The notes under the pieces are model-generated. The model had not been told where the DNA came from and made no database searches. It worked only from the letters and a program-made list of their open reading frames with translations. This document shows, one piece after another, positions 5,222 through 62,502 of a DNA stretch of 64,000 nt. Both the position numbers and the translations under genes were made by a program. Source of the DNA: a virus. Taxonomy: Duplodnaviria > Heunggongvirae > Uroviricota > Caudoviricetes. The stretch lies in IMG/VR virus record IMGVR_UViG_2639762987_000002; one strand, given 5' to 3'. How positions within the stretch are numbered: position 1 is the first letter of the stretch; the number at the start of each line of letters is the position of its first letter.

Positions 5222-5284
5222 TATTGTAAGTACATACTTATGATCATAGAATATCAAAATAACCAATACACTATGGAGGGTGAA

Positions 5285-5680
5285 ATGACCGTTAAACGCG
5301 AAAAACTGACAGTTGATGTTTACTATGCCTCTGAAACTGCCGAAGGTAAGAATGTGGCAAAAATCACCGTTGTTACGTACAACACCGAAACTGGTGCCGA
5401 AGTCCAGGCCAGTACGATCGTGCGTAAAGGTGATGCCTCCGGCGGCGAGTACGCGACTCAATACCAGTCTATTCTCGATGCAACTGACCCGCTGCTGCTG
5501 AAAATCGAGAACTACTTCCGCCAGGTTGATGAAGAGGTGTTTGAAACCATGATGAGTATGGTTAATTCCGTATTCGCCTCCAGCCTGAACACCAGCACCA
5601 CCTGGATTGGCCAGTATGGTCTGCGCATTACCTCCGGCATTCCTGCTGACACCTTAATCCCTGAAAGCGTATTCGCTTAA
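5285..5680 (+). CDS. hypothetical protein (131 aa)
   Basis: ORF; ATG 5285 preceded by RBS ggaggg; motif-2 palindrome taagtacatactta at 5228-5241. Confidence 0.6.
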   Translation: MTVKREKLTVDVYYASETAEGKNVAKITVVTYNTETGAEVQASTIVRKGDASGGEYATQYQSILDATDPLLLKIENYFRQVDEEVFETMMSMVNSVFASSLNTSTTWIGQYGLRITSGIPADTLIPESVFA

Positions 5681-5691
5681 TCCTCTTTAAA

Positions 5692-5717
5692 TGGCGCGTA
5701 AACCGCGCCATTTTCTT
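5692..5717 (+). terminator. Rho-independent terminator
   Basis: Hairpin tggcgcgtaaaccgcgcca followed by ttttctt. Confidence 0.7.
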
Positions 5718-5797
5718 ATACCCGATAACAATTTGTTTTCTGCCTTATCTGATTTGTGAAAATGATTTCACTGAAGCAAGTTAATAAGGAAACCATC

Positions 5798-6172
5798 ATG
5801 GGACTTGATATCTATATCGAGACACAGCCTAAAAACGATCTGAATAACGAGGCATCCAGAAAGCAGGTTGCTTACTTCCGTAAGTTCAATGCGCTCGTTG
5901 GGTGGATGGAGCGCAACGTAGGTGAAGTCGAAAATTGTGAGCTTTTAGAATTAACGATGAATGACATTTGTTTTCTGAAGGCTCATTTGATGCACATAAA
6001 CGAAAGTAATTGCGAAGAGTACTTGCCTACCCGGGAAGGTTTTTTCTTCGGCAGTCAGGAGTACGATGAAGGTTACTGGCATGATGTGGGGGAGTTGAAA
6101 GAGCTTGTGGAAGATCTGATTAAGAACCACGACTTTCACAATAACAGACTGACCTTCTGCGCCTGGTGGTAA
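5798..6172 (+). CDS. hypothetical protein (124 aa; alternative start GTG 5756)
   Basis: ORF; ATG 5798 has RBS aagga at 7-nt spacing; motif-1 at 5725-5740. Confidence 0.5.
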   Translation: MGLDIYIETQPKNDLNNEASRKQVAYFRKFNALVGWMERNVGEVENCELLELTMNDICFLKAHLMHINESNCEEYLPTREGFFFGSQEYDEGYWHDVGELKELVEDLIKNHDFHNNRLTFCAWW

Positions 6173-6174
6173 AT

Positions 6175-6318
6175 ATGGGCGATTTCAAGAAAACCCTGAA
6201 GGAAAGAGCCGAGATGGTCAGAAAGCAAAACGCCTCTTCTGTCATCAGATACGCAAGGCAGTTTAGTCGCAACAACAAATCAGTTGAGGAAAAGATCCTT
6301 AGCGTAATCGGTCGATAA
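6175..6318 (+). CDS. small hypothetical protein (47 aa)
   Basis: Short ORF hand-translated MGDFKKTLKERAEMVRKQNAS...; starts 2 nt after previous stop with ggtgg upstream; below the ORF-track cutoff. Confidence 0.3.
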   Translation: MGDFKKTLKERAEMVRKQNASSVIRYARQFSRNNKSVEEKILSVIGR

Positions 6319-6522
6319 TTATTAAGGCCATCAGCATTGGTGGCCTTAAATGACCATCCTGTTTCCCGTAGGCTAAAAACACCAACCTCTTACCTCCAGG
6401 CAACCGACAAACCCACCTGTTCCCGTCCGGCTACCGCAACTTTCCACTTTGACGCCTTATTCGTACAACGATAATTAACACCAACAAGAAAACAATTTGT
6501 TATTTACGATAAGGAATTAATC

Positions 6523-7005
6523 ATGAATTTTATCGCTACTGTAAACGCACCCGCACATGGCAATATCGCTGTAACGTTCTCTGACATTGAAAAACGAGTA
6601 CTTGGTGCATGGCGCGACAATGAGACGGTAGAACTGTCAGCACAAGAAAAATGCATTATTGCACGCGACATCATTGGCAATCGTCGTTACTCGCGGGTAT
6701 TTGAGAAAGCGTATGTGGTAAATTCTGGATTCGGAACGTTCGTCTTTCCGGTGCGCTCCGGGCGATTCTGCCAGTCCAAGCTGATTGAGTTCGCTACGCA
6801 GATTTCTGTCTGGATTAAAACTCAATCGTCGTTCAAATTTTCCGACGATGAAGCAGTATCGCAGGGGATGCGGATCGCCAACAATGCAATTAAATGCAAA
6901 AACATTACGTATACCGCTGGCGTTGATACATGGAAACTGTTTTGCGCTAACTTTATGCTGAATGTATACGCAAGCAACCGCATCCACATCCTTGATGGCG
7001 TGTAA
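6523..7005 (+). CDS. hypothetical protein (160 aa)
   Basis: ORF with RBS aaggaa; motif-1 at 6485-6502. Confidence 0.6.
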   Translation: MNFIATVNAPAHGNIAVTFSDIEKRVLGAWRDNETVELSAQEKCIIARDIIGNRRYSRVFEKAYVVNSGFGTFVFPVRSGRFCQSKLIEFATQISVWIKTQSSFKFSDDEAVSQGMRIANNAIKCKNITYTAGVDTWKLFCANFMLNVYASNRIHILDGV

Positions 7006-7012
7006 CTGAGAA

Positions 7013-7036
7013 GAGGGCCAGAAACGGCCCTTTCTC
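7013..7036 (+). terminator. Rho-independent terminator
   Basis: Hairpin agggccagaaacggccct followed by ttctct. Confidence 0.55.
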
Positions 7037-7050
7037 TATAGCCACCAGCT

Positions 7051-7141
7051 GCCGCAGGGAAATTTTCAGAAACGGCAAGGAACGCATTCATGAGCCGATG
7101 GGAAACGGCCAGGATTTTTTCGGGAAACGGCTGCATTCGCC
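7051..7141. repeat. Second array of GGGAAACGGC-type direct repeats (3-4 copies)
   Basis: gcagggaaatttt / cagaaacggcaagg / gatgggaaacggccagg / ttcgggaaacggctgc; same family as 3871-4012. Confidence 0.55.
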
Positions 7142-7259
7142 TTTATGTAGAAAAAACATCGGGAAGCTGGTGGAATCCAACCAGCGGTTGTCGGACAGGT
7201 GAGCGGGGAAAATCATGATGACTTTCGTCGCCTGAGACATCCAGATTTCTTTCGTAGCG

Positions 7260-7315
7260 TAATCACATATGTGATTAAGTGGTGTGATTATGTGAAAAAT
7301 CACGCGCACATAATA
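7260..7315. promoter_or_regulatory. Operator-like nested palindromes, including a perfect 18-bp palindrome
   Basis: taatcacatatgtgatta (7260-7277) is its own reverse complement; followed by gtgattatgtg...cacataat inverted repeats. Confidence 0.5.
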
Positions 7316-7620
7316 CGCGAGCGGATACGGAACAAAACAAAATGCCGATCCGCGCCGACAAATAAACGCGGATCATAAAGCAAGACTAAAAGCCAATGAT
7401 TAACCATACTCTATAGCGCAATATAACGCGTTTTAAGCGCGTTAATGTGTTAAGTAATGGGTATGTACTGGCAAGGATATAAAAGCGCGTCTATGGCGTT
7501 ATTTTGGCGCTTATTTTTATGTTGTTGGAGTGAGTTAAAGACAATAAAAACGCGCCATCATTGGCGCGTTATGGTAGGTGTATTGGAAACGAAAAAAGCG
7601 CCCATAGTGGGCGCTCGATT

Positions 7621-7851
7621 TTATTTGTGTAAACTGATTTTAAATCCCATTTCTACAAACGCTTTTAACATTAAAAATATATCAGCGTCGTTCACGTCTG
7701 CTTTTTTTCGCTCCTGGTCGCTCAATAAGTCAATTTTGCGCGTCGTTTCATCTATAAGCTCGACTGCGCGCCCAGCGTAACCAGCGATCCCAGCGATGCG
7801 ATTAACATAATATTCATTATGGACGTTAACGCCAGCGATAAGAACAAACAT
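7621..7851 (-). CDS. hypothetical protein (76 aa)
   Basis: ORF in AT-rich minus-strand block; two tandem hairpin plus T-run terminators downstream on the minus strand (7548-7576, 7594-7622). Confidence 0.45.
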   Translation of the reverse strand: MFVLIAGVNVHNEYYVNRIAGIAGYAGRAVELIDETTRKIDLLSDQERKKADVNDADIFLMLKAFVEMGFKISLHK

Positions 7852-7872
7852 GATTAAGCTCCTTAAAAAAAA

Positions 7873-8121
7873 TTAAATAGAATTTTGAAGTTTTCCGATT
7901 AATGCGCTTAAACGTAAGTATTCACGTTTGCGCTTGCAATCTCGCTTGCTGTTAAGCAAATCAGAAAACGTAAAATTTAATTGGTCGCGTTGCGCGATCA
8001 AATCATCGATTAATTCCAGTTTATAAGCGCGATACTTTGCGCGATACTTTGCGCGGATCTTGTCATAGCTGACCATTTTTAAAGCTCCTTTAAAGCGCCC
8101 ATAGTGGGCGCTTGATTCCAT
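7873..8121 (-). CDS. hypothetical protein (82 aa; alternative internal start)
   Basis: ORF; contains a tandem 12-nt duplication encoding AKYRAKYRA. Confidence 0.4.
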   Translation of the reverse strand: MESSAHYGRFKGALKMVSYDKIRAKYRAKYRAYKLELIDDLIAQRDQLNFTFSDLLNSKRDCKRKREYLRLSALIGKLQNSI

Positions 8122-8124
8122 TAA

Positions 8125-8775
8125 TTACGCTTTAAAAGCATCAGCTAAATAATTGTAGAAATCATTCTTGATAAAGCGATATTGCTGTGTACCAGCTTTT
8201 GCGCTTCCCATTCCTTTGACTTTCTCAACAAGTCCAAGACGTTCGCAAAGATTGATCAACTGGTTGGCTTGAGTATAGCCAGCGTCCAATTTAATTTCGC
8301 ACGCTTTTTTAGCTTCATTCATTAAATCGAAAACAGCGCCATTGGTGAACGTGTCGATCTCGTCGTTAATCATATCGATTAAAGCGAATACACGAGATCC
8401 TGACATATCAGCGACGGAATAAACGCATTTACCAGCTTTAATGGATTTAACCAGATAAACCAGTTTTTCCAGTGAATAACTATTAGTCATAGCATCACGG
8501 AAAAATACTTCTGGCGCTTGTTTGCTTGCTTTAATCGCATAGTAGAAAACAGAGCATAATTTTTCGTCTTCTACTGCGTTTACGACGTTGTTGATGAAGT
8601 AAGCAAGTTTAGTGGTCGCAGCTTGCATATTTGCTTTGTCTGCTTTAGTGTGCGTACCATTTTTATAATGTTCGTTGTATGTTTGAGTTGCCAGATCTGC
8701 TTTTTCGCGCAGTTCATCGGATACAATGGAAGCAGCTTCAACGATGGATTTTTTAGAAATGATAATGTTAGCCAT
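8125..8775 (-). CDS. hypothetical protein (216 aa)
   Basis: ORF; no motif recognised. Confidence 0.55.
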   Translation of the reverse strand: MANIIISKKSIVEAASIVSDELREKADLATQTYNEHYKNGTHTKADKANMQAATTKLAYFINNVVNAVEDEKLCSVFYYAIKASKQAPEVFFRDAMTNSYSLEKLVYLVKSIKAGKCVYSVADMSGSRVFALIDMINDEIDTFTNGAVFDLMNEAKKACEIKLDAGYTQANQLINLCERLGLVEKVKGMGSAKAGTQQYRFIKNDFYNYLADAFKA

Positions 8776-9058
8776 GATGATTTTTCCTTATGTAAATTTA
8801 AAATTTATTGTCGTTAGCGTCTTCGCTTTCGACGAGTTCAATTATCGATACGCGAAAAAAGATTGCAAGTGTTTTTTTAAAATTTTTTGCAGGGATGAAA
8901 GTCCTAGAAATAAAAGCGAGATCGTCGAAGGTGTTCCCTAAATAAATAATCGATTCCGGCTTTCGACCTTATATATATTTAGGTTATTTGATTTATAGAT
9001 ATAAAGAAGTGATGTGAAAAATAATAACCGGACTTAGCCGGTTATTAACCTTATAGAT

Positions 9059-9367
9059 TTATTGAACAGACTCTACAGCCTTACGATTGGTGTCAAATAG
9101 CGCATCAACGAACTGTGCCGATGACTCGCTAGATTCGCAATCCAACATTGCCCGTTCTTCATTTGCCACTTTCTTACACAGTTCCACATTCTCGCCTATC
9201 GCTTTTCCTGCTTTTACGGCTGCCGAAAATTGATACATGCAAACTGATACATTCTGAGACGTTGAGCACACGTCATTCATCAGCGACTGAATGACAGGCT
9301 TATAGTCCATTGCATTTGCCGCAACTGAGCAAAGTAAAAATAATGGTGGTAACAATATCGATTTCAT
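9059..9367 (-). CDS. secreted Cys-rich protein with signal peptide (102 aa)
   Basis: N-terminus MKSILLPPLFLLCSVAANA is a classical Sec signal; six Cys in the mature part; terminator hairpin downstream on the minus strand (9029-9052). Confidence 0.6.
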   Translation of the reverse strand: MKSILLPPLFLLCSVAANAMDYKPVIQSLMNDVCSTSQNVSVCMYQFSAAVKAGKAIGENVELCKKVANEERAMLDCESSESSAQFVDALFDTNRKAVESVQ

Positions 9368-9370
9368 AAC

Positions 9371-9895
9371 TCAAAAAGGCAAAATTCGTTCAACCCAATC
9401 GAACAAAACAACTATTTTTCTACCGTTCTCGACACGTAGTGTAACCTGACAAGCATCTGCGCCTGCTGACACCCCCTCAATTTCACGGCCATCCGCCATG
9501 TACACCCTTATAGATTTGTTTGCTTTGTAGGCTTGGTTGCAAATTGCAAAAAAATCGCGGCGTGATGGCCGATTATCGACATAATCAGGGTGAACTGTTA
9601 GTCGACCTTTGAAATCGTGAGCGATACTGTCAACCACACCTGATTCAATTGTACTAATGCGTTCAAGTGGGAGCCTTATACGATTTTCTTTGTCAAAAGG
9701 GGCTGGGCAAAGGTCAACTTTGTTACGAGATGGCATGAGGCCATAAACGTACATGCAAAACGCCTGGCCATCTTCGAGAGTGACCCTTACAGGAATTTGT
9801 TCTCTGCGCCAGAACATCAGTAGTTTTTCAACGTTAGTGTAATCTCGCGGCCAGAGTTCAGCTTGGATACCGTAGGTAATATCTTTGGTTGTCAT
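9371..9895 (-). CDS. hypothetical protein (174 aa; the listed ORF extends to 9973)
   Basis: ORF; start at internal Met (MTTKDITYG) avoids a 74-nt overlap with the upstream gene. Confidence 0.5.
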   Translation of the reverse strand: MTTKDITYGIQAELWPRDYTNVEKLLMFWRREQIPVRVTLEDGQAFCMYVYGLMPSRNKVDLCPAPFDKENRIRLPLERISTIESGVVDSIAHDFKGRLTVHPDYVDNRPSRRDFFAICNQAYKANKSIRVYMADGREIEGVSAGADACQVTLRVENGRKIVVLFDWVERILPF

Positions 9896-9899
9896 GTCA

Positions 9900-10669: not shown

Positions 10670-10671
10670 AA

Positions 10672-12231: not shown

Positions 12232-12313
12232 AAACCTCTTTCCTTAGTGCCTTTTGTATGTTATTTGGCTATTATAATAAGTAAGTGATTACTTAGTGGA
12301 TTGTAGCAATAAA

Positions 12314-16315: not shown

Positions 16316-17571
16316 TGGCAATCCCGTCCTCGCTCAGTCTTGTGCAACTGCATTCTGGACAGATGAAAGTCTTCCAGTCTCCGCATCGATTTAAAGTTGT
16401 TTGTGCTGGTCGACGCTGGGGAAAATCCCGGTTGTCGATCTCCACTATTATTCGTGCGGCGGCAAAGGAAAAAAAGCAAAGGGTCTGGTATGTCGCTCCT
16501 ACTTACCAGATGGCTCGCCAGATTTTGTGGGACGATCTACAGGAAGTTCTGCCTCGTAAGTGGGTTAGGAAAAAGAACGACACCACGATGACAATCGTGT
16601 TGAAGAACGGTTCGGAGATCGCCCTCAAAGGTGCTGATAAGCCTGACACTCTGCGCGGCGTAGCGTTGCATTTTGTAGTGCTTGATGAATTTCAGGATAT
16701 GAAGGCTGACACCTGGTACAAGGTGTTACGACCTACTCTTTCATCGACACGCGGCGGTGCACTGATCATTGGTACGCCAAAAGGCTTCTCGGAATTTCAC
16801 AAACTGTGGACTATAGGCCAGAACGTAGAGCTGCAAAGAAAGGGACAGTGGAAGAGCTGGCAGTTTGTAACTGCCGATTCTCCGTTTGTGCCTACGGCGG
16901 AAATTGAAGCTGCTAAGAACGATATGGACCCGAAATCGTTCGCTCAGGAGTACCTGGCGAGCTTTGAGAACATGTCCGGGCGCGTTTACTACCCGTTCGA
17001 TCGTAACGTGCATGTAAAACCGCTTCAGTTCAACCCTCGGTTGCCTATATGGGTAGGGCAGGACTTCAACATTGACCCGATGTCTTCAGTAATTTTGCAA
17101 CCTCAGCCAAATGGTGAGCTATGGGCAATTGATGAATTGGTGCTCTTTTCCTCTAACACGGCAGAGGTTTGTGATGAGCTTGAGAGACGCTTCTGGCGCT
17201 GGAAATCACAGATAACGGTATTTCCAGATCCGGCAGGTGCTTATCGCCAACATGCTCGCGGGGAGTCTGACGTCGACATATTCAAAGAGAAGGGATTCTT
17301 ACGTGTCGATTATTCGAAAAAGCACCCGCCAATTGCGGATCGTGTTAATGCTGTTAACCGAATGCTGATGACCGCATCTGGAGATATCCGGTTGTATATC
17401 GATCCGAAGTGCAAGCATTTGATTGATTCACTGGAAAAAGTCATCTACAAGCCTGGAACACGAGATATGGATAAGACAGGTGGCATTGAGCATAGTGCAG
17501 ACGCATTGGGCTATCCAGTACATCGTAGGTATCCAGTCAAAAACCGTGTTATTCTTGGTGGTTCTCGATAG
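16315..17571 (+). CDS. terminase large subunit (418 aa)
   Basis: Walker A-like VVCAGRRWGKS and Walker B VVLDEF; position before portal. Confidence 0.75.
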   Translation: MAIPSSLSLVQLHSGQMKVFQSPHRFKVVCAGRRWGKSRLSISTIIRAAAKEKKQRVWYVAPTYQMARQILWDDLQEVLPRKWVRKKNDTTMTIVLKNGSEIALKGADKPDTLRGVALHFVVLDEFQDMKADTWYKVLRPTLSSTRGGALIIGTPKGFSEFHKLWTIGQNVELQRKGQWKSWQFVTADSPFVPTAEIEAAKNDMDPKSFAQEYLASFENMSGRVYYPFDRNVHVKPLQFNPRLPIWVGQDFNIDPMSSVILQPQPNGELWAIDELVLFSSNTAEVCDELERRFWRWKSQITVFPDPAGAYRQHARGESDVDIFKEKGFLRVDYSKKHPPIADRVNAVNRMLMTASGDIRLYIDPKCKHLIDSLEKVIYKPGTRDMDKTGGIEHSADALGYPVHRRYPVKNRVILGGSR

Positions 17572-17597
17572 GTAAGTAATTATCTAAGGTTATTCAA

Positions 17598-19172
17598 ATG
17601 GAATTGAACGACAAACAAATTAAGGATCTGGTGGCGCGACGCCACCCGGAATACGAAAAGAAAAAAGAACATTGGGACTTCCTCGCCAGCACTTACGCTG
17701 GCGGGCGTGGTTGGTTTACAGACAATATCTTTCGTTACTTTAAAGAGGGAGATCAGGAGTTTAAGGAGCGAGTTGAGCGTGCTTATCGCTTCAACCACAC
17801 TCGTGAGGTGGTAAACCTCATCAACAAATATCTCTTTAAAGAAGACATTCATAGAAATATCGAAGAGGCACCAGAGCAGATCCGCAATTTCTGGAAACGT
17901 GCGACTCGCCAGAATGCCTCTATTGACTCATTTATGGCCGCTATTGATTTGCAGTCGTCTATTTACGGTCGCATATGGGTTGTTGTCGATAGCACGATGA
18001 GTGGTGATGTTGAGTCAGTAGCTGACGAGAAAAAGAAAGATGCTCGCGCCTACGCCTACTGGATTTCACCTCAGCAAATGCTGGATGTGGCATGGGACGA
18101 CGACGGGAATATGTTGTGGGCGTTAATTGTGGAAGTCGCTCGTGATGACGCAGATCCTTTTACTTCTACAGGTCAGGAATACCAACGTTATCGTCTGTGG
18201 ACACAAAACGAGTGGTATCTGTTCCGTGAGGAAGTGAAGAAGGGCGCTGGTGGAGCAGGTCGCCGTCAGGCTAAAGTTATTTTAGAGGATAGCGGTGAGC
18301 ATAATCTCGGCGTAGTTCCTGTGTTTCCTGTTGATTGTATTGGAGAAAGTGAATCACCGTATTTCAGCCCATCGTTGATCGATGATATCGCTTATCTTGA
18401 TCGTGCGGTTGCAAACTATCTGTCAAACCTTGATGCCATTATTCAGGATCAGACATTTAGCCAGTTGGCTATACCGGTACAGTCGCTTTTACCTGGTGAT
18501 GAAAACCACACTAAAGTGCTTGAAATGGGCACAAAGCGAGTCTTCACCTACGATTCTGAAGGTGGAAACCAGCCGTTTTATCTGTCACCAGACCCGAAAC
18601 AAGCTCAGATGATCATCACTACGATTAAGACGGTGATTAACGAAATCTACCATTCAGTTGGTGTAGCTGGTGAGCGAACGAAGCAGGACAACGCACAGGG
18701 AATCGATAATTCATCTGGTGCCGCAAAAATGTATGACTTCCAGCGTGTAAATAGCTTGCTTGTCACAAAAGCAGAGCGTCTGGAAAGGGCTGAACGCCAA
18801 ATCATGCTACTGGTTGCGAAATGGATGGGGGCAGATCTGGACGAAGACCACTCTTTAATTGCGTATCCAGAAAGTTTCGATATTCGTGGCCTTACTGATG
18901 AATTTTCTGTTGCCGAGAAACTGTCATTACTTCAGGCACCGGACTCTGTACGTCGTCACCAGATGGAAATGCTTATTGAGAAGATTTTCCCGAACATTAC
19001 TGAGGCGATGAAAAAGGAATTTGATAAAGATCTCTTGAATTTTCCTCCAAAAAATGATCTAAATACCCTTGAAAATAAGTCAGTACTTACTTATGATCGT
19101 GGTGCAGCCCAAGAAAGCGGGCAAGATCAACCCCGAGGGAATGGGGACTCATCTACTCAAGAGAACGAGTGA
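17598..19172 (+). CDS. portal protein (524 aa)
   Basis: Size and position between terminase and scaffold; motif-2 upstream. Confidence 0.65.
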   Translation: MELNDKQIKDLVARRHPEYEKKKEHWDFLASTYAGGRGWFTDNIFRYFKEGDQEFKERVERAYRFNHTREVVNLINKYLFKEDIHRNIEEAPEQIRNFWKRATRQNASIDSFMAAIDLQSSIYGRIWVVVDSTMSGDVESVADEKKKDARAYAYWISPQQMLDVAWDDDGNMLWALIVEVARDDADPFTSTGQEYQRYRLWTQNEWYLFREEVKKGAGGAGRRQAKVILEDSGEHNLGVVPVFPVDCIGESESPYFSPSLIDDIAYLDRAVANYLSNLDAIIQDQTFSQLAIPVQSLLPGDENHTKVLEMGTKRVFTYDSEGGNQPFYLSPDPKQAQMIITTIKTVINEIYHSVGVAGERTKQDNAQGIDNSSGAAKMYDFQRVNSLLVTKAERLERAERQIMLLVAKWMGADLDEDHSLIAYPESFDIRGLTDEFSVAEKLSLLQAPDSVRRHQMEMLIEKIFPNITEAMKKEFDKDLLNFPPKNDLNTLENKSVLTYDRGAAQESGQDQPRGNGDSSTQENE

Positions 19173-20982: not shown

Positions 20983-21016
20983 TCAGTGTAGTAGATAAGT
21001 AGTTATCTATGTTAAA

Positions 21017-24561: not shown

Positions 24562-24635
24562 GTTAATCGGTAAGTATATACTTACTGTTAGCGCAATGAA
24601 TGCGTAGAATTAACGGAAAAAGGAGTTTTCCATCA

Positions 24636-31062: not shown

Positions 31063-31144
31063 GCATCTGGATAAGTAAGTACTAATTTACTATCATTGTG
31101 GCGCTGACAGGATGTTAGCGCCTACTTATTTCAAGGATGAAACA

Positions 31145-37953: not shown

Positions 37954-38046
37954 TGGTAGAAAAAAATATTTATATCGGTAAAAATAAGTAGGTACTTACT
38001 TAATGGTGGGCAAGGATAGCCCACCAAATCAAGGAGCATATTCAAC

Positions 38047-42534: not shown

Positions 42535-42765
42535 ATGAAAAGATTATTTCTAACAATAGCTGTTGTTCTCTCTCTTACTGGCTGTCAGAAATTGCCGACA
42601 CCCATATGTTATGGTGAGGCTATCATTGGTGGACAGGAGACAGTCATACCTATATATGCTGTTAAAAAGGTTAACGGCTATACCTTATACAAAGCGGGTA
42701 GCATCTATAACTGGCGATGGGTTGGAGTAGGTGCTTTCTCATCAGTGCGTTGCAATGCTGAATGA
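42535..42765 (+). CDS. small lipoprotein (76 aa)
   Basis: Signal MKRLFLTIAVVLSLTGC with lipobox LTGC. Confidence 0.6.
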   Translation: MKRLFLTIAVVLSLTGCQKLPTPICYGEAIIGGQETVIPIYAVKKVNGYTLYKAGSIYNWRWVGVGAFSSVRCNAE

Positions 42766-42846
42766 TAAGTAAGTACACACCTACAACAAAAGGGTGAAAT
42801 GTGATATAAATCCGCCATCCCGATTTGACTTTTCATGGAGGAAAAC

Positions 42847-47813: not shown

Positions 47814-47920
47814 TCTTTTAAAAGACACCACCAGAACAACTCCCTTCCGTTTCCACTTCCAAAAACTGCCACCAGTCGCTATCATCCGCTCATTGTGATA
47901 AGTAAGTAACTACCTACCAG

Positions 47921-51317: not shown

Positions 51318-51392
51318 CAATCACCTTTAAAATAAGTAGATGATTACTTATCTTTCTGTGAGAATACTTTCATCTGTTAGCTAGGAGTTGGT

Positions 51393-52169: not shown

Positions 52170-52224
52170 TCTCTCCGCGCGTCGTTTTTTACGCAAATAA
52201 CGATAGGTAAGTACAAGATTATTT

Positions 52225-54837: not shown

Positions 54838-55615
54838 AAACATATTGATAAGTATTTACTTACTTATCTTTTGTGTATAAGATGACTTTGTTTTCGTTGA
54901 GACGCGACTGTTTGAACTTAAATACAAGTGCAAACGAAGAAGTCTATCTGGCAGTAGCCTAATAAGCCAAACACCAGCGAGGTCAGTTTCCAGCCTCGTT
55001 ACCGAAATGGGACACACTGAGCGAGTGTGATTGCAGAACGCAGGAGGGAACATTCATGTTCCCTCCGATGAAGTAACAGAATGGGCGGTTGGTATATTTT
55101 CAACTCCATATGACTCCCGGATTCTTAGCCACTGACCGCCCATCCTGTTACGTCATTTTGTTCAATTATGTCGTTTATACTGGGTTAAAAAGCGGCGACG
55201 TAGCCCGGCTGGTATGGTTAGCCAGCACACAACGTTGAGGCCATTACATTTTTATCAATTCTAAGGTTCTATTCACAGAGATACCGGCGAGCGTTGATAT
55301 GTAACATGTTGGGCAAACATTCAATCGGAGTAGTGGCCTCAACGTTGTGAAGACGGGATTGTTGTGTAGGTTTAACCACTGTTGCCATTGGTGCCTGTTT
55401 TCACAACAAATGATTCCATACATCACATTGTATAAATTACAAAGTAGGTGCTGTCCTCAGAAACATCATCTACTTAAAGATTTTGCCTTCTACTATTGAG
55501 CGAAGTCGAAAGCGTCTGGCACTAACGAAAAGTGCAAGTAGCGGTGCGTTTCCTGGCAGAAACTAAACCGTCGCGATTGGCACTGTTGAGTAATAAATAC
55601 TGGCAGTGCTGAATT

Positions 55616-57729: not shown

Positions 57730-57755
57730 AAGATAGGTATGCACATACCTATCTT
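57730..57755. promoter_or_regulatory. 26-bp operator-like palindrome with 11-bp perfect arms
   Basis: aagataggtat gcac atacctatctt, followed by gtaagtaaagttac. Confidence 0.5.
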
Positions 57756-57795
57756 CTTTGTAAGTAAAGTTACATATCAATTCTACGAGGTCACA

Positions 57796-58041: not shown

Positions 58042-58046
58042 TTTTA

Positions 58047-58070
58047 ACGGCTCACAGGAGCCGTTTTTAT
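58047..58070 (+). terminator. Rho-independent terminator
   Basis: Hairpin acggctcacaggagccgt followed by ttttt. Confidence 0.75.
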
Positions 58071-58251
58071 TCCCACCAAACTCACTCCCGTTTCCCTTAA
58101 AATTCAAAAAACAACGTCAAAATGATTCCATACCTACTATGTATGGAATCATTGCTGAAAATGAGTTACTTTTACTCTTGATCCTATAAGAATCTATGCC
58201 TAATATACTGTTTACTTATACAGTGCATCGGCGTAACTCGGTGATTGTCAT

Positions 58252-59355
58252 ATGAAAAATAGCTTTGACAGAGCACGCGCTGCGGAGAACACCTCAAAAG
58301 AGGCGATAGAGTATCTCGAAAGAGCATCTCAAATGCAGGCCGTTATGATCTCGCAGGTTAGCAATGACATGAGATTCTCGGACGCATTCATGTTATTCAC
58401 TCGCTTATCTCTGCTGATAACCAGACGTCGGCCAGAGATCGCTGTTCATTGTATTTTGATACATGTTTTGCCGCACATTGCCGATGTAAAAGTAAGTGAC
58501 ATTAATAGGTTCATGGTGAACCAACTGGTCAACCCACTAATACTGGATGGCAAAATTGTTATGGGCCGCCGCGTTTTCTCTCTGATGAAGCAGTTCCTTA
58601 GCTGGTGCGCCTTCCAGGGGATGATAGACGTGTCACCGTTAAACGATATGTCACTAAACAAAGTTGCCGGTGGCGCAAAGCCCACACCTCGCGAGCGGAA
58701 GCTGACCGACGCAGAGGTATGGGTGTTCTGGAATATATGGGACTACTTCAATGTGTGCGCTGGTACAAAATGGGCGGCCAGGCTGTGTCTTGTATCCGCA
58801 AGACGACCTGACGAAGTACTGCGGGCTAAAAAAAGTGAGTTCAATCTTAAGCGTGGGGTTTGGAATCAAGGCAAGAGGAACAAATCTGCCCGTGAGCATT
58901 CGCTGCCTTTAAGCACATTAATGCGCACATGTATTGAAGAGTTGTTCGAATACGGTAAAGGCAGCCAGTGGCTCGTGCCTTCGAATAAAAAAATCGGGAA
59001 AGACCTTCCTATGTCTAAAGTGGCAATAGCCCAGGCATTACGTCGTATCCTGGAACGACCAGAACTGATGGAGCTTGAGCCATTTACACCCCGAGACTTG
59101 CGCCGTACTGCGCGTAGTTACTTCCCAGCATTAGGCATAAGCCAGGAGGTATCACGTAAAATCATGAACCACAGTCTTGAGGGGATAGATCGAGTCTACG
59201 ACCGGCACGATTATATGGACGAGATGCGAGACGCCTTAGAAAGTTTCTCGACGTACATCGCATCAATCGTAGAGCAACCGGATTTAGACGAAATTGACCA
59301 CAAATTTAAGGGAGATCGTCTATCAACAGAGCTTATTCGTGTAAATTTTTCATAG
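58252..59355 (+). CDS. int: tyrosine recombinase / integrase (367 aa)
   Basis: C-terminal catalytic region with conserved R (PRDLRRTARS), HxxR-like and Y (VYDRHDY) residues. Confidence 0.8.
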   Translation: MKNSFDRARAAENTSKEAIEYLERASQMQAVMISQVSNDMRFSDAFMLFTRLSLLITRRRPEIAVHCILIHVLPHIADVKVSDINRFMVNQLVNPLILDGKIVMGRRVFSLMKQFLSWCAFQGMIDVSPLNDMSLNKVAGGAKPTPRERKLTDAEVWVFWNIWDYFNVCAGTKWAARLCLVSARRPDEVLRAKKSEFNLKRGVWNQGKRNKSAREHSLPLSTLMRTCIEELFEYGKGSQWLVPSNKKIGKDLPMSKVAIAQALRRILERPELMELEPFTPRDLRRTARSYFPALGISQEVSRKIMNHSLEGIDRVYDRHDYMDEMRDALESFSTYIASIVEQPDLDEIDHKFKGDRLSTELIRVNFS

Positions 59356-59736
59356 AGACTTTATGGCCTCAACAACCTTTTGTGATGCGCCTTTCTCTTT
59401 ACCGAATCGCTCGTTATATGCAGCAAGAACCTGTTTTTCGTCCTCGTTAAGAGGAGCAGTGCCTTCTTTGTATAAAAATGCTGCGAGTTCGGGTTGGCGT
59501 TCTTCCAGCACCATCATCATAAGACGACTTGGCTCAATACCCAGTGCCAGCGCCAGCGGACGAACCTTATCGATAGGCAAAGGAATTTTGCCGCTTTTAA
59601 TTAAAGAAAGGTTGTTGGCGTTTTTATACCCAATTGTTTTGGCTATCTGGGCCTGGCTCATAGGTGAGGATTCAATCAACCCTGCGATAAAAGCAGCGTA
59701 GCGACTTTCTATAAATTCAATCTTGTTATCAGACAT
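59350..59736 (-). CDS. XRE-family HTH transcriptional regulator, repressor-like (128 aa)
   Basis: HTH SQAQIAKTIGYKNANNLSLIKSGK; divergent from the downstream + strand genes. Confidence 0.7.
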   Translation of the reverse strand: MSDNKIEFIESRYAAFIAGLIESSPMSQAQIAKTIGYKNANNLSLIKSGKIPLPIDKVRPLALALGIEPSRLMMMVLEERQPELAAFLYKEGTAPLNEDEKQVLAAYNERFGKEKGASQKVVEAIKSL

Positions 59737-59987
59737 GGTTACAACCTTTGCGCGTTCAATTCTCTCTGGTAAGTGCTTACCGATATTACATCAAAGGTTA
59801 GGGTTGTAAAGCTATTATCATTTTTTTCGATAGGCACTTAAAAGACCGGTTAAAGGCCATTGCACGGAGAAAAATTAGCCCAAAATAGGTAAGAAAATTA
59901 ACTTGCATATGATATGAATGTATTCAGTATTGATACAAATTTTAGTAGTATTCCTTACCATAGTATAAGTTAGAATGGATTGATTGA

Positions 59988-60200
59988 ATGAACACCACTA
60001 TTTCCAGCCTAATCGCTCTTGAGATCGGACACGTACAGAAATTAGCTGATGAGTGTGTAGCTGACATCCTCACCGATCTACCGAATGAGCAGATTCAGGT
60101 TGGTGTGAATGACACAACTGGCTTTATATTCGAACTTAACAACAAACGCTTCACGCTTCTCAATACCGGCTCCGAGTCTTTAGCCGTCAGAATCTGTTAA
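59988..60200 (+). CDS. hypothetical protein (70 aa)
   Basis: ORF. Confidence 0.4.
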   Translation: MNTTISSLIALEIGHVQKLADECVADILTDLPNEQIQVGVNDTTGFIFELNNKRFTLLNTGSESLAVRIC

Positions 60201-60298
60201 CCCCTCTTCTCCCTGCGCGAATGGCTTAGTTCCCTGTTCGCGCAGTGCTACATTAAACACACTAGTAAATAATTTGTTTTCATAACAAAGGATTAGCC

Positions 60299-62407
60299 AT
60301 GTCTAAAAAACGTTCCATCAAAGAGGTTCAGGACTTCCGTGACAGTGTAAAACGAGTAGTCGCTCTCCTTTCAGGTAAAAACATCCCTGTTGCAGAACGA
60401 GGAGACGACGCTTATGTACGCTATAACGATGATGGAGAGCCAATTCTCGTAAACATCCCATCAATCCCGGATAACGCAACACCGGCATTGATGAATGCTG
60501 TGCGCGGATTTCTCGATCATGAGGTTGCTCACATTTTGTTTACCGATATTCGTGTGTCCAACAAAATGAGAGAAAAAGAACGCGTTCCTTCTTGGTCGCT
60601 ATGGAATGCCTTAGAAGACGTGTTCATCGAGCGAAAAATGGGGCAGGTCTTTAACGGAACAAGACGTAATCTGATGGCAACTCAGCGCCTTATAATCGAA
60701 AAAGTCTTTAAACCAAAGGCTTCAGAGGCTATTGCTTATTGTGGCAAAGATCAGCGCGCGCTTTTTCTAAACTTCTTTCTCTGTCCGGTTGTAAGAGCCT
60801 GGGATGGCCAAGCACCGTTCGTAGATTTCATGGATGAATACTGGCCTGTCATTGAGAAACCAATTTCATTATTAAAAGAACATGGTATCGATGTGGCCGT
60901 GCGTAACATGTCTTGCACCGAGGATTGTGTAAAGGTGGCTGCGACCATAGCTAAGATCCTCAAAGACACTGAAAGTGAAAGCAAAGGTAAGGAGTCAGCT
61001 CCGGGAAAAACTTCCGATCCTTCAGACGCTGACCAGACGGATGCCTCTGGAGAAAACAGTGAAGACAACGAAGATCATGAGACACCCTCAGCGTTAGATA
61101 ATCACAAATCTATCAAATCAGAATCACATAGTAGGTACAAACATGATAATAACGACAGTGATGATTCAGATAATTCTGAATCATCAGAAACAATATTCGA
61201 TGATACAGAAAATGATAAAGAGGTATCAGATTCTGATGCTTCTGATAACGCGGCGTCAGAATCATTAACCGCTGACCACGAAAAAAGAAAAACGACAGAA
61301 GACGGCTCTTCAGATATCCCAACTCCGTCAAAAATGAGTCTGGAAGAGGCTTTAGAGGAGTTGGATAGCATGGAAGATGAAGTCGGAGGCATGACAGAAG
61401 ATGCGCTATCCGAAACGATTAAAAGCGAGTTAACAGAAAGCTCGAAAAGCGAATACAGGCCATACAATCGCTCATACGACTTCATCGGCTCGATTGATCA
61501 GGCAGAAGCCCATATCAAACGGCTTATTAAAACATTCTCCGATATTGATTTGGGAGGATATCCAATCAGCCGCTATCGCATCGTTCCTGAAGGCAACCAG
61601 CTCTTCGACAAATATATTGAAAAGCACCTTTCGTCAGGTGTTTCGTCGACGCTGGCAAAAGACCTGGAACGTGCAATAGCAAGCAGAAACAGAGTTCAGT
61701 TTATACCTGGCCAGCGTCGGGGGCGCATTCATGGTTCAAGTATCTACAGATTAACAATGAATGATGATCGCGTGTTTCGTAAAAAAGAAGAATCTAAAGC
61801 CGTTAACGCCTGTGTTCAACAAGTGATTGATTTATCGGGTTCAATGAGTGGCGAAACGATAAAACTAGCTCTTGCAAGTGCATATACCATCGCCGATGCA
61901 CTTGATCGAATAAATGTTCCCAACATTATCACCGGCTTCACTACATTTGGCAGTCATATGGCAGCAGGAGAACTTAAGGCTATCAAATATGAGTTCTCTC
62001 GCTTTGAATCTTTAATGCTACCTATCATCAAAAATTGGAATGAAAAAGCAAATTCTCGCGAAGTTCGCTCACGTATGGGGTGCGTAGGCTACACATTCCC
62101 ACTTCTTAATAACGTGGATGGTGAAAGCATAGCCAGCCTTGCATCGTTATTTTCCGGTCGCATGGAGGACAGGAAGATCATGCTTGTTCTGAGTGATGGC
62201 GCGCCGTGGGCTGTTGGGAGAGGTTTTGACGCTCATTTGCGTTCAGTTGCGAAGCAAATTGAAACGCAGACTGATATTGATTTGATGGCAATTGGCATCA
62301 TGACTGACGCACCGGAGAGATTTTACTCAAATCATGCCCTGGTAACGAGCGTTGATAGTCTTGGTTCATCTGTAGTTACTGAACTATCTCGTATCATTTT
62401 AAAGTGA
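60299..62407 (+). CDS. vWA-domain protein, CobT-like (702 aa)
   Basis: C-terminal MIDAS motif VIDLSGSMSG; central Asp/Ser/Glu-rich low-complexity linker; motif-1 upstream. Confidence 0.7.
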   Translation: MSKKRSIKEVQDFRDSVKRVVALLSGKNIPVAERGDDAYVRYNDDGEPILVNIPSIPDNATPALMNAVRGFLDHEVAHILFTDIRVSNKMREKERVPSWSLWNALEDVFIERKMGQVFNGTRRNLMATQRLIIEKVFKPKASEAIAYCGKDQRALFLNFFLCPVVRAWDGQAPFVDFMDEYWPVIEKPISLLKEHGIDVAVRNMSCTEDCVKVAATIAKILKDTESESKGKESAPGKTSDPSDADQTDASGENSEDNEDHETPSALDNHKSIKSESHSRYKHDNNDSDDSDNSESSETIFDDTENDKEVSDSDASDNAASESLTADHEKRKTTEDGSSDIPTPSKMSLEEALEELDSMEDEVGGMTEDALSETIKSELTESSKSEYRPYNRSYDFIGSIDQAEAHIKRLIKTFSDIDLGGYPISRYRIVPEGNQLFDKYIEKHLSSGVSSTLAKDLERAIASRNRVQFIPGQRRGRIHGSSIYRLTMNDDRVFRKKEESKAVNACVQQVIDLSGSMSGETIKLALASAYTIADALDRINVPNIITGFTTFGSHMAAGELKAIKYEFSRFESLMLPIIKNWNEKANSREVRSRMGCVGYTFPLLNNVDGESIASLASLFSGRMEDRKIMLVLSDGAPWAVGRGFDAHLRSVAKQIETQTDIDLMAIGIMTDAPERFYSNHALVTSVDSLGSSVVTELSRIILK

Positions 62408-62502
62408 ACAAAACAGCCTTAACGATAAGTAACCACTTACGATAGATAATGATATATTTATATAAGAAGTTGAACGCTCATTAGAAAACAAAGGAAAAAC
62501 GC

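What the first reader, a model, noticed from the sequence alone, without database searches (positions are those of the whole stretch)
5228..62440. Motif 2: GATAAGTAAGTAC-type elements, often as TAAGTA-N-TACTTA palindromes, upstream of late and replication genes
At least 15 intergenic copies occur at 5228, 12279, 15536, 17570, 19173, 20995, 24571 (perfect 16-bp palindrome gtaagtatatacttac), 31073, 37986, 42767, 47895, 51332, 52203, 54848, 57761, 59771 and 62421. They lie 20-80 nt upstream of portal, scaffold, decoration, major tail, tail L, tail fibre, holin-like, replication and CobS-like genes. This is a second, distinct signal from motif 1 and looks like a late promoter or dyad operator family; the variable centre length (1-6 bp) is unusual for a single dimeric binder.
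Basis: seen in the sequence. Interest (0 to 1): 0.65.

Follow-up and report, generated by a model that had tools for sequence, protein, structure and literature searches.

The report
Prophage repressor operator family, phage-plasmid
The repeated TAAGTA/TACTTA signal is real: it is one fixed 20-bp palindrome that marks most lytic gene units of an SSU5-like phage-plasmid, and it most likely serves as the binding site through which one small repressor keeps the prophage silent.

Summary
The window is an SSU5-like phage-plasmid, 97% identical to Escherichia phage Cyrano/pLF82. The motif is a single 20-bp palindrome, ATARGTA-N6-TACYTAT. The best consensus here is ATAAGTAAGTACTTACTTAT. The tool finds 16 matches against 0.37 expected. 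About 14 are strong sites, and a degenerate copy lies on the promoter of a repressor gene.

The reported 'variable centre' is an artefact of an internal 4-bp periodicity. The half-site spacing is constant.

Sites sit at orthologous positions in relatives whose proteins are only about 45-50% identical. The flanks are symmetric and the two arms do not covary. The element is therefore a symmetric double-stranded DNA site for a dimer. It is not an oriented promoter element or an RNA hairpin.

Several sites overlap near-consensus sigma-70 promoters in different registers: in the spacer, over the -35, over the -10, and downstream of the start. All these promoters point at the downstream gene. Published lysogen RNA-seq shows that genes behind sites are silent.

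An XRE-type repressor gene (59350-59736, minus strand) is expressed in lysogens and is absent from virulent SSU5. It carries a conserved inner copy of the palindrome over its own transcription start.

Best reading: a dispersed operator regulon of the prophage repressor. Binding is inferred, not shown. This is a new member of a known kind.

The parts
5222..5241 (.). Weak site TATTGTAAGTACATACTTAT. The GTA-N6-TAC core is intact and the right arm is perfect. It lies just after an intrinsic terminator (about 5195-5220) and 43 nt before the ATG at 5285.
   Evidence: A promoter-like match TTGTAA-17-TAGAAT at 5224-5252 overlaps it. The site is conserved in Cyrano and SSU5.
12277..12296 (.). Site ATAAGTAAGTGATTACTTAG in the divergent region between the UvsW-like helicase operon (minus strand) and the ParB-like operon (plus strand).
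   Evidence: Orthologous in 68 related loci.
17568..17587 (.). Site ATAGGTAAGTAATTATCTAA at the junction of the large-terminase stop and the portal start. It ends 10 nt before the portal ATG at 17598.
   Evidence: Orthologous in 80 loci, with the outer 14 bp 89% conserved among variants.
19075..19094 (.). Site ATAAGTCAGTACTTACTTAT inside the 3' end of the portal gene, 99 nt before the next gene (19194). It forms the 17-bp spacer and the start of the -10 of TTGAAA-17-TATGAT (19069-19097).
   Evidence: It coincides with the best sigma-70-like match in window 1-20000, at 10 of 12 positions. The outer 14 bp are 98% conserved among 47 sequence variants.
20991..21010 (.). Degenerate site GTAGATAAGTAGTTATCTAT after the major capsid gene. 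A terminator hairpin follows directly at 21017-21033 plus a T-run.
24566..24585 (.). Site ATCGGTAAGTATATACTTAC before the major tail gene. Its centre, TATACT, is the -10 of TTGAAT-18-TATACT (24553-24582).
   Evidence: The centre is 98% conserved among variants and the -35 is also conserved. In Cyrano RNA-seq, CYRAN_12 rises above CYRAN_11 (8.49 against 5.98 log2, macrophage 6 h).
31071..31090 (.). Site ATAAGTAAGTACTAATTTAC before the tail L-like gene. It is followed by the hairpin at 31100-31122.
   Evidence: A promoter-like match TGGATA-17-TATCAT at 31068-31096 overlaps it.
37984..38003 (.). Site ATAAGTAGGTACTTACTTAA before the tail-fibre gene (ATG at 38047). It is followed by a GC hairpin that shows compensatory changes in relatives.
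42765..42784 (.). Site ATAAGTAAGTACACACCTAC before the holin gene (ATG at 42835).
47898..47917 (.). Site ATAAGTAAGTAACTACCTAC, ending 12 nt before the ATG at 47930. This gene is the first of the helicase/primase cluster.
51332..51351 (.). Perfect site ATAAGTAGATGATTACTTAT before the gene at 51393. An extended -10-like TGTGAGAAT starts 6 nt downstream.
52203..52222 (.). Site ATAGGTAAGTACAAGATTAT with a good left arm and a degenerate right arm. It ends 2 nt before the ATG at 52225.
54848..54867 (.). Perfect site ATAAGTATTTACTTACTTAT upstream of the tRNA cluster region. TTTACT-17-TAAGAT overlaps it.
57733..57752 (.). Perfect palindrome ATAGGTATGCACATACCTAT, starting 14 nt downstream of the -10 of TTGATC-16-TATAAT (57692-57719). 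That places it at about +8 to +27 of the glutaredoxin-like gene's transcript. A half-site follows at 57761.
   Evidence: 10 of 12 positions, the best promoter-like match in 44001-64000.
59765..59784 (-). Degenerate operator ATCGGTAAGCACTTACCAGA (minus strand). It matches positions 4-17 of the consensus. It overlaps the end of the -10 and the start site of the repressor gene's promoter, TTTACA-16-TAATAT (59810-59783).
   Evidence: The promoter plus palindrome are conserved in 26 sequence variants, including Klebsiella.
62421..62461 (.). Two adjacent degenerate copies, AACGATAAGTAACCACTTAC and ATAGATAATGATATATTTAT, before the CobS-like gene (62503).
59350..59736 (-). Candidate cognate repressor: a 128-aa XRE-type helix-turn-helix protein, identical to CYRAN_45. 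It lies next to the integrase and diverges from a 70-aa cro-like gene (59988-60200).
   Evidence: Weak Pfam HTH_19 hit and PHROG transcriptional regulator hit. The predicted fold matches Cro, C-protein, HigA and SinR HTH domains. Expressed in the lysogen at 96 against a background of 9.8. Homologs occur only on contigs of about 100-116 kb. Absent from SSU5.

Best explanation
Motif 2 is a family of about 15 sites in this window, and about 25-35 per genome. Each site is a 20-bp palindromic operator, ATARGTA-N6-TACYTAT, with core RGTA-N6-TACY and arm centres 10 bp apart. A dimeric phage-encoded helix-turn-helix regulator binds these sites on double-stranded DNA.

The most likely binder is the XRE-type prophage repressor encoded at 59350-59736 (minus strand). 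In the plasmid prophage this repressor would occupy operators that overlap or abut the sigma-70 promoters of nearly every lytic transcription unit. These units cover replication, nucleotide metabolism, head, tail and lysis genes. Occupancy would block initiation. At sites with no recognisable promoter it might block read-through. A weaker inner copy over the repressor's own transcription start would give negative autoregulation.

Shown here: the motif, its fixed geometry, its symmetry, its deep conservation, its overlap with promoter-like sequences, the silence of downstream genes in lysogens, and the conserved copy at the repressor promoter.

Inferred: that a protein binds at all, that the protein is this repressor, and that binding represses.
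For: 1. Statistics: 16 matches against 0.37 expected.

2. Geometry: only spacings 2 and 6 occur, which means one fixed 20-bp frame.

3. Symmetry: the flanks mirror each other. Mirror positions 5-16, 7-14, 8-13, 9-12 and 10-11 are complementary no more often than chance. A.C mismatches (29) outnumber G.T (15), which argues against an RNA stem.

4. Conservation: there are 22 and 24 strong sites in Cyrano and SSU5 at orthologous positions, with sequence turnover. The same half-sites occur in loci with 69-81% portal identity and in contigs with only about 45-53% amino-acid identity. The site inside the portal coding sequence keeps 98% of its outer positions.

5. Promoters: 6 of 45 sigma-70-like matches overlap or abut sites, against 0.9 expected (P about 3e-4). 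All 6 face the downstream gene (P = 0.016). The registers differ: the motif is the spacer (19069), lies over the -35 (5224, 31068), contains the -10 (24553), lies at +8 to +27 (57733), or covers the -10 and start (59810, minus strand). This is the pattern of steric repression, not of activation at a fixed position.

6. Expression (Cyrano lysogen, supplementary table of PMC9928086): none of 22 genes directly behind a site exceeds the authors' expression cut-off, against 18 of the other 101 genes (P = 0.02). When the prophage is partly active (macrophage 6 h), expression steps up exactly at the sites with the best promoters: CYRAN_55 to 56 rises from 4.06 to 7.61, CYRAN_59 to 60 from 4.84 to 8.77, and CYRAN_11 to 12 from 5.98 to 8.49.

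7. Repressor link: the gene is expressed in lysogens. It is present at 56-100% identity in all temperate relatives, always beside the integrase. It is absent from SSU5, which is described as virulent in the abstract of PMC5427195, yet SSU5 keeps the sites. Its helix segment IGYKNxNNLSLIKSGKIPLP is nearly invariant. Its promoter CTTTACA-N16-TGTAATAT is followed by RGTAAGYACTTACC in all 26 variants seen.
Against: No binding data exist. The assignment of this repressor rests on one conserved degenerate site at its promoter and on co-occurrence.

Other small DNA-binding proteins are also conserved and untested. These include the winged-helix-like proteins at 15221-15487 and 54186-54401, the cro-like gene at 59988-60200, and the ParB-like proteins.

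Several late-region sites (17568, 20991, 37984, 42765, 47898) have no recognisable promoter. Over 60 non-redundant sites, promoter scores are not significantly higher in the gene direction than in the mirror direction (P = 0.36).

Most phage genes are silent in lysogens anyway, so the expression contrast is weak (P = 0.02).

The repressor has no autocleavage domain, so the route of SOS induction is unexplained.

The repressor diverges to 56% identity while the operator stays constant. This is unusual for immunity determinants.
Confidence: 0.6

Rival explanations
1. The palindrome is the binding site of a phage-encoded transcriptional activator. The activator would turn on middle and late promoters that lack a -35, in the manner of P1 Lpa at its -22 box or P2 Ogr.
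For: The centre of the local consensus, AAGTACTT, resembles the P1 late-promoter box AAGTNACTT extracted from the annotated P1 record. Many sites have poor or absent -35 hexamers. Several early sites carry an extended -10-like TGTAAGAAT or TATAAG 7-9 nt downstream. The genes behind sites are silent in lysogens, which fits a missing activator as well as a present repressor.
Against: tblastn finds no Lpa homolog. The centre is not conserved in distant relatives, whereas the outer arms are. The position of the site relative to -10-like hexamers varies from -14 to +10 or more, and at 57733 the site is downstream of the start. Several overlapped promoters already match 10 of 12 consensus positions and should not need activation. 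Spacing to the -10 differs from the P1 geometry.
Confidence: 0.15
2. The motif acts in RNA. It would form an AU-rich hairpin in 5' leaders and intergenic mRNA. That hairpin would be recognised by a translational repressor, for example the FljA-like protein at 9371-9973, or by a processing nuclease.
For: Many sites lie 1-17 nt before start codons or Shine-Dalgarno sequences. The phage encodes a conserved homolog of FljA, E = 2.5e-84. From my own knowledge, FljA is reported to bind the fliC mRNA leader. The palindrome can fold, with an energy of -3.5 to -6.6 kcal/mol.
Against: The two arms do not covary. A.C mismatches are commoner than G.U-compatible ones. Some good sites do not fold at all (0.0 kcal/mol). 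Both arms are conserved in sequence rather than in pairing. The site at the repressor promoter overlaps the -10 and start. The hairpins that do covary are separate GC-rich stems downstream of the motif.
Confidence: 0.07
3. The sites are bound by a ParB/KorB-like protein or by a host regulator of the NarL/RcsB type. They would serve partition, silencing, or host-signal control.
For: The arm TACYTAT fits the NarL heptamer TACYYMT, and TAAGTA resembles the RcsB half-site TAAGAA. Both comparisons are from memory only. Two ParB-like genes sit next to site 12277. From my own knowledge, KorB of RK2 uses dispersed palindromes.
Against: The NarL 7-2-7 arrangement is absent: 0 matches at 1 mismatch or fewer. 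The arms are everted relative to it and are 6 bp apart. The ParB-like genes are themselves behind a site and are silent in the lysogen, at 5.0 and 9.5 against a background of 9.8. The motif is almost confined to SSU5-type contigs among 2.9 million viral contigs: the strict form ATAAGTAAGTNNTTACTTAT matched only 39 stretches, and 11 of the 12 loci compared by tblastx with Cyrano (10 of them with two or more relaxed sites) are distant SSU5 relatives.
Confidence: 0.06
4. The motif is an A+T-composition artefact or a chance repeat.
For: The motif is AT-rich and lies in AT-rich intergenic DNA.
Against: There are 16 matches against 0.37 expected in dinucleotide-preserving shuffles. The spacing is fixed. 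Sites are retained at orthologous positions across relatives down to about 45-50% amino-acid identity, and one is retained inside a coding sequence.
Confidence: 0.01

Closest known systems
Streptomyces phage phiC31 repressor and its conserved inverted repeats (CIRs)
   Same: From my own knowledge: a short conserved palindrome is repeated many times across a temperate phage genome, close to lytic promoters, and is bound by the prophage repressor. This is the closest analogue in logic and symmetry.
   Different: The sequence, repressor family and host are unrelated. In phiC31 the sites are mainly in the early region. Here they also precede head, tail and lysis genes. Not tested here.
Mycobacteriophage L5 / cluster A repressor with operators and 'stoperators'
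   Same: About 20-30 repressor sites are dispersed through early and late regions in short intergenic gaps (PMC9283540). The virulent relative D29 keeps the sites but lacks the repressor (my own knowledge), which parallels SSU5 here.
   Different: L5 sites are asymmetric 13-mers bound by a monomer, and they work only in one orientation relative to transcription. The sites here are palindromic with symmetric flanks. Elongation block is untested here.
Phage-plasmid P1 C1 repressor with dispersed operators
   Same: Also a plasmid prophage whose repressor controls many scattered operators that overlap sigma-70 promoters. This is visible in the annotated P1 record.
   Different: The C1 operator is an asymmetric 17-mer and is absent from this window: 0 matches at 3 mismatches or fewer. 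In P1, late genes are controlled indirectly through Lpa. Here structural genes carry the sites themselves.
P1 late promoters (Lpa-dependent -22 box AAGTNACTT plus -10)
   Same: An AAGT/ACTT inverted repeat lies close to a -10 upstream of morphogenesis genes. The two phages share other modules, such as the P1-like genes annotated in Cyrano: tail fibre S, Cra and TciA/B.
   Different: The P1 element is a 9-bp box at a fixed 4 nt from the -10. There is no Lpa homolog here. Here the outer arms, not the centre, are the conserved part, and the register varies.
Lambda/434-type CI-Cro switch (XRE helix-turn-helix dimers on palindromic operators)
   Same: The predicted fold of the candidate repressor matches 434 Cro, C-proteins, HigA and SinR. 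The gene is divergent from a small cro-like gene. A palindrome lies on its own promoter.
   Different: There is no clustered OR/OL pair controlling a cascade. Instead about 25-35 single operators are spread over 100 kb. The repressor has no peptidase domain.

Membership tests
Prophage repressor operator regulon (dimeric HTH repressor, palindromic operators) | Repeated palindromic sites with fixed half-site spacing. | tested here: met
   ATARGTA-N6-TACYTAT gives 16 matches against 0.37 expected. Only spacings 2 and 6 of the inner and outer hexamers occur.
Prophage repressor operator regulon (dimeric HTH repressor, palindromic operators) | Operators overlap or abut promoters of lytic genes. | tested here: inconclusive
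   Six promoter-like matches overlap sites against 0.9 expected, and all are co-directional with the downstream gene. About half of the sites have no recognisable promoter, and the global directional test is not significant.
Prophage repressor operator regulon (dimeric HTH repressor, palindromic operators) | A cognate repressor gene is expressed in the lysogen and carries an operator on its own promoter. | tested here: met
   CYRAN_45 is expressed at 96 against a background of 9.8. RGTAAGYACTTACC lies over its start site and is conserved in 26 variants. That this protein binds the site is an inference.
Prophage repressor operator regulon (dimeric HTH repressor, palindromic operators) | Target genes are silent in the lysogen. 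| tested here: met
   None of 22 site-preceded genes is above the cut-off, against 18 of 101 others (P = 0.02).
Prophage repressor operator regulon (dimeric HTH repressor, palindromic operators) | Demonstrated protein-DNA binding and repression. | not testable with these tools
   Requires EMSA or footprinting, ChIP-seq, and reporter assays.
Mycobacteriophage stoperators | Asymmetric site whose orientation follows the direction of transcription. | tested here: not met
   The site is palindromic, with symmetric arms and flanks. The feature is as defined in PMC9283540.
Mycobacteriophage stoperators | Many sites in short intergenic gaps of both early and late operons. | tested here: met
   There are 22-24 strong sites per genome, from the portal to the lysis and replication genes.
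Mycobacteriophage stoperators | Repressor-dependent block of elongation. | not testable with these tools
   RNA-seq shows drops across some sites, for example CYRAN_30 to 31 from 9.97 to 3.91. Terminator hairpins lie there as well.
P1 Lpa-dependent late promoters | A 9-bp box AAGTNACTT placed 4 nt upstream of a -10 hexamer. | tested here: not met
   The P1 promoters were extracted. Here the centre is the 8-bp AAGTACTT, it is not conserved in relatives, and no -10 lies at a fixed offset.
P1 Lpa-dependent late promoters | An Lpa activator gene. | tested here: not met
   tblastn of P1 Lpa against the window, Cyrano and SSU5 gives no hit better than E = 0.7. A remote homolog is not excluded.
P1 C1 operators | The 17-bp asymmetric consensus ATTGCTCTAATAAATTT. 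| tested here: not met
   No matches at 3 mismatches or fewer.
NarL/NarP 7-2-7 sites | TACYYMT-NN-AKRRGTA inverted heptamers. | tested here: not met
   No matches at 1 mismatch or fewer. The arms fit the heptamer but are everted and 6 bp apart.

The most novel reading that the evidence does not exclude
One small XRE repressor would directly hold about 30 separate sigma-70 promoters across a 108-kb phage-plasmid, including the head, tail and lysis units. There would be no early-to-late cascade. The promoter-less copies inside operons would act as symmetric, orientation-independent roadblocks, a palindromic counterpart of mycobacteriophage stoperators. The operator would have stayed fixed across a family whose proteins have diverged to about 45-50% identity. 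If so, members would be broadly homo-immune, and one repressor could silence the whole clinically widespread SSU5/pHCM2/pKpn/pSLy3 group.
Probability: 0.2. Interest if true: 0.65.

Novelty: new member of a known kind. Interest (0 to 1): 0.45.

Why it matters
SSU5-like phage-plasmids are common. The immunity region of this one is on plasmids in 218 of 5,426 complete E. coli genomes. Relatives include pHCM2 of Salmonella Typhi and Klebsiella elements, and members of this group carry antibiotic-resistance genes (PMC9600943, listed).

I found no description of their lysis-lysogeny control in the searchable literature. A 2024 review lists regulators for other phage-plasmids but none for this group.

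A defined operator sequence, a candidate repressor and a map of about 15 controlled units in this window make three things directly testable: the switch, cross-immunity between members, and engineered induction or curing. The result also gives an explanation for why SSU5 itself is virulent.

Tried and rejected
1. A fixed -10 downstream of the motif. Offset profiles of TANNNT and NANNNT show no peak, and the downstream and mirrored upstream flanks are alike. A subset of early sites does carry TGTAAGAAT or TATAAG 7-9 nt downstream.

2. An RNA hairpin or cruciform. The arms do not covary and folding is weak or absent.

3. A P1 Lpa-type late promoter. There is no Lpa homolog and the geometry differs.

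4. P1 C1 operator and NarL 7-2-7 patterns. Both are absent.

5. Pfam and PHROG scans of ten small ORFs to find a better binder. Only the XRE repressor and the FljA-like protein were informative.

6. Sequence search of the repressor against PDB. Nothing was found. The fold search gave only generic XRE HTH matches, with E = 5e-3 to 8e-2.

7. Covariation between a repressor variant and its operators. The variant has recognition helix NQVSFIK. Its lineage shows more TACATAY arms, but the sample is too small to count.

8. Literature. Three papers could not be opened: the P1 genome paper, Gilcrease and Casjens 2018, and a 2026 preprint on a phage-plasmid.

Full report
**What the window is.** Megablast of window 16000-36000 finds Escherichia phage Cyrano (pLF82) at 97% identity and Salmonella phage SSU5 at 81%. 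The window is therefore a 64-kb stretch of an SSU5-like phage-plasmid. Window position 15549 corresponds to about Cyrano position 1. Cyrano's annotation gives the gene map. From 15.7 to 44 kb lie terminase, portal, capsid, tail, tail fibre and lysis genes. From 45 to 64 kb lie ParA, helicase, primase, ligase, four tRNA genes, an integrase, a 'putative repressor', CobT/CobS-like genes and the start of a DNA polymerase gene.

**Checking the observation.** TAAGTA occurs 44 times against 21 expected. Pairs of TAAGTA and TACTTA with at most one mismatch occur only at spacings 2 (11 cases) and 6 (7 cases), with one case of 4. The reason is that the sites are versions of one palindrome with a 4-bp internal period, TAAG-TAAG-TA-CTTA-CTTA. 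That palindrome contains an inner hexamer pair 2 bp apart and an outer pair 6 bp apart.
- Against the 18-mer there are 2, 3 and 2 sites at 1, 2 and 3 mismatches, where simulations give none.
- Aligned in one frame, the sites give A-T-A-R-G-T-A-(A-G-T-A-C-T)-T-A-C-Y-T-A-T.
- The tool's own test of ATARGTA-N6-TACYTAT at up to 2 mismatches gives 16 matches against 0.37 expected.
- One listed coordinate (15536) is the tip of a separate long hairpin that also occurs at about 47780.

**Conservation.** A position weight matrix built from the window finds 22 strong sites in Cyrano and 24 in the first 100 kb of SSU5. They precede the same genes but often differ in sequence.
- I fetched 80 related loci around the portal gene, with 69-100% protein identity. 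The same sites are present in them.
- In the more distant loci the outer arms persist while the central six bases drift, as in ATAGGTATTTAAATACCTAC and ATAGGTGGTTAACTACCTAT.
- For five orthologous sites the palindrome is conserved at least as well as its flanks. The copy inside the portal reading frame keeps 98% of its outer 14 positions among 47 sequence variants.
- A scan of 2.9 million viral contigs for a strict form of the motif gave only 39 stretches. I compared 12 of those loci with Cyrano by tblastx, 10 of them holding two or more sites. Eleven proved to be remote SSU5 relatives with about 45-53% amino-acid identity. The twelfth, a two-site locus, showed no similarity.

**DNA site or RNA structure, symmetric or oriented.** I analysed 151 distinct 20-mers.
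- Mirror positions 5-16, 7-14, 8-13, 9-12 and 10-11 are complementary exactly as often as independent columns predict.
- Only pair 4-17 shows an excess (0.65 against 0.47). Lineage preference for TAAG or TAGG can explain this.
- A.C combinations (29) outnumber G.T (15). This is the opposite of what an RNA stem on the coding strand would tolerate.
- The base composition of the 16 positions downstream mirrors that of the 16 upstream.
- No -10-like hexamer sits at a fixed offset.

The element is thus a symmetric duplex-DNA site of the kind read by a homodimer. It has no polarity of its own, so it cannot by itself be a promoter.

**Relation to promoters.** Sigma-70-like matches are rarer than in shuffled sequence throughout the window: 20, 6, 6 and 13 found against 28.7, 12.6, 15.8 and 36.2 expected. 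Even so, six of the 45 matches overlap or abut motif sites, where 0.9 is expected. All six point at the downstream gene. The six cases are:
- TTGAAA-17-TATGAT at 19069-19097, where the palindrome is the spacer. This is the best match in the first 20 kb.
- TTGTAA-17-TAGAAT at 5224-5252.
- TTGAAT-18-TATACT at 24553-24582, where the -10 is the centre of the palindrome. That centre is 98% conserved.
- TGGATA-17-TATCAT at 31068-31096.
- TTGATC-16-TATAAT at 57692-57719, with the palindrome at about +8 to +27.
- TTTACA-16-TAATAT at 59810-59783 on the minus strand.

Outside the window, Cyrano and SSU5 have TTGAAA-17-TATCAT, TTGATA-17-TAACAT and TTTACA-17-TAGTAT built around further sites.

One binding site placed in the spacer, over the -35, over the -10 or after the start is what steric repressors show. 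An activator needs a fixed position. Two cautions apply. About half the sites, mainly in the late operon, have no recognisable promoter. A global comparison of promoter scores in the gene direction against the mirror direction is not significant (P = 0.36).

**Expression data.** The LF82 study provides per-gene RNA-seq values for Cyrano in the lysogen (PMC9928086, supplementary table).
- The 22 genes directly behind sites have a median of 8.5, against a background of 9.8.
- None of the 22 exceeds the authors' cut-off of 49, while 18 of the other 101 genes do (P = 0.02).
- Those 18 are toxin-antitoxin pairs, ParA, RepA, the integrase, the putative repressor and a few others. None lies directly behind a strong site, although CYRAN_81 follows a weak copy and the repressor gene carries its own degenerate operator.
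- In bacteria taken from macrophages at 6 h, when some lytic genes rise, the steps occur at sites with the best promoters. CYRAN_55 to 56 goes from 4.06 to 7.61, CYRAN_59 to 60 from 4.84 to 8.77, and CYRAN_11 to 12 from 5.98 to 8.49.

This shows that at least some sites coincide with real promoters that are off in the prophage state.

**Who binds.** The gene at 59350-59736 (minus strand) is identical to CYRAN_45, which the LF82 authors call the putative repressor. It is expressed about ten-fold above background.
- It has a weak XRE helix-turn-helix signature.
- The predicted structure has a mean pLDDT of 81. Its N-terminal domain superposes on 434 Cro, restriction-modification controller proteins, HigA and SinR.
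- Homologs are found almost only on contigs of 100-116 kb from Escherichia, Salmonella, Cronobacter, Citrobacter, Enterobacter, Klebsiella and Raoultella.
- In phage records the gene is present beside the integrase in every temperate relative found, at 56% identity in Klebsiella. It is missing from both SSU5 records.
- SSU5 lacks the whole integrase-repressor block and is referred to as virulent (PMC5427195 abstract). SSU5 nevertheless keeps the sites.
- Upstream of the repressor gene, in all 26 sequence variants examined, the promoter CTTTACA-N16-TGTAATAT is followed at once by RGTAAGYACTTACC. That is positions 4-17 of the motif, covering the end of the -10 and the start site. A weak operator on the repressor's own promoter is the classical sign of negative autoregulation.
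- The segment IGYKNxNNLSLIKSGKIPLP, which holds the predicted recognition helix, is nearly invariant. This matches the constancy of the arms.

These links are circumstantial. Other conserved small DNA-binding proteins were not excluded.

**Alternatives considered.**
- The centre AAGTACTT resembles the -22 box of P1 late promoters, AAGTNACTT, which I read from the annotated P1 genome. However, there is no Lpa homolog, the centre is the least conserved part of the motif, and the geometry differs.
- An RNA operator for the FljA-like protein is attractive because several sites abut start codons. The lack of covariation argues against it.
- The arms fit the NarL heptamer, but the 7-2-7 arrangement is absent.
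- The P1 C1 operator is absent.

**Comparison with known systems and novelty.** In logic this is closest to three systems: the dispersed conserved inverted repeats of the phiC31 repressor, the operator/'stoperator' regulon of mycobacteriophage L5, and the scattered C1 operators of P1. It differs from L5 and P1 in being palindromic. It differs from lambda-type switches in having about 25-35 single operators spread over the genome, including in front of structural and lysis genes. I found no description of the regulatory circuit of SSU5-like phage-plasmids. I therefore rate it a new member of a known kind, of moderate interest. It gives a concrete, testable switch for a widespread and clinically relevant plasmid-prophage family, which is present in 4% of complete E. 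coli genomes.

Noticed in passing
window 9371-9973 (minus strand): A 200-aa homolog of FljA, the 'repressor of phase-1 flagellin' (PF03614, E = 2.5e-84). It is conserved in Cyrano (CYRAN_114) and SSU5 (SSU5_121). This suggests the phage-plasmid may interfere with host flagellin expression.
   Followed up: partly
It usually lies 8-12 nt downstream of a GATAAT- or TATTAT-like -10. It precedes small unknown genes, terS, parA and the helicase. Some of these units are expressed in the Cyrano lysogen.
   Followed up: partly
window 15511-15567 and about 47760-47814: Two copies of a roughly 55-bp near-perfect hairpin, CCTGCTTCTGTATATATAAATAATAAGTAACTTATTAAATATATACGGAAGCAGG (-30.8 kcal/mol). Similar elements occur in Cyrano and SSU5. 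The tip, AAGTAACTT, equals the P1 late-promoter box consensus. One copy lies just upstream of terS. In Cyrano a copy separates the expressed parA operon from the silent CYRAN_31.
   Followed up: partly
whole window: Sigma-70-like promoter matches are under-represented relative to dinucleotide shuffles in all four segments scanned: 20 against 28.7, 6 against 12.6, 6 against 15.8, and 13 against 36.2.
   Followed up: no
window 24586-24610, 31100-31122, 38005-38025, 21017-21040: GC-rich stem-loops directly follow several motif sites. In relatives they keep pairing through compensatory changes, for example GGTGGGC/GCCCACC against GGCGGGC/GCCCGCC. Only some have a T-run. They may be 5' stabilisers or attenuators.
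   Followed up: no
L263 (contig of GCA_050572525.1), repressor at 10001-10384: This lineage's repressor has an altered recognition segment, YQNQVSFIK. It shows more TACATAY/RTATGTA arms and a near-perfect operator on the repressor promoter (ATAGGTAAATACTTACCAAT). This is a possible case of protein-site covariation.
   Followed up: partly
window 59300-60250: The repressor/cro-like immunity region is found in 218 of 5,426 complete E. coli genomes. It is always on plasmids of about 110 kb and never on chromosomes, even though an integrase gene lies next to it.
   Followed up: no
window 55616-56166: A cluster of four tRNA genes (Asn, Tyr, Thr, Ser), against three in Cyrano and one in the SSU5 stretch examined. 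A perfect motif site (54848) lies about 750 nt upstream.
   Followed up: no
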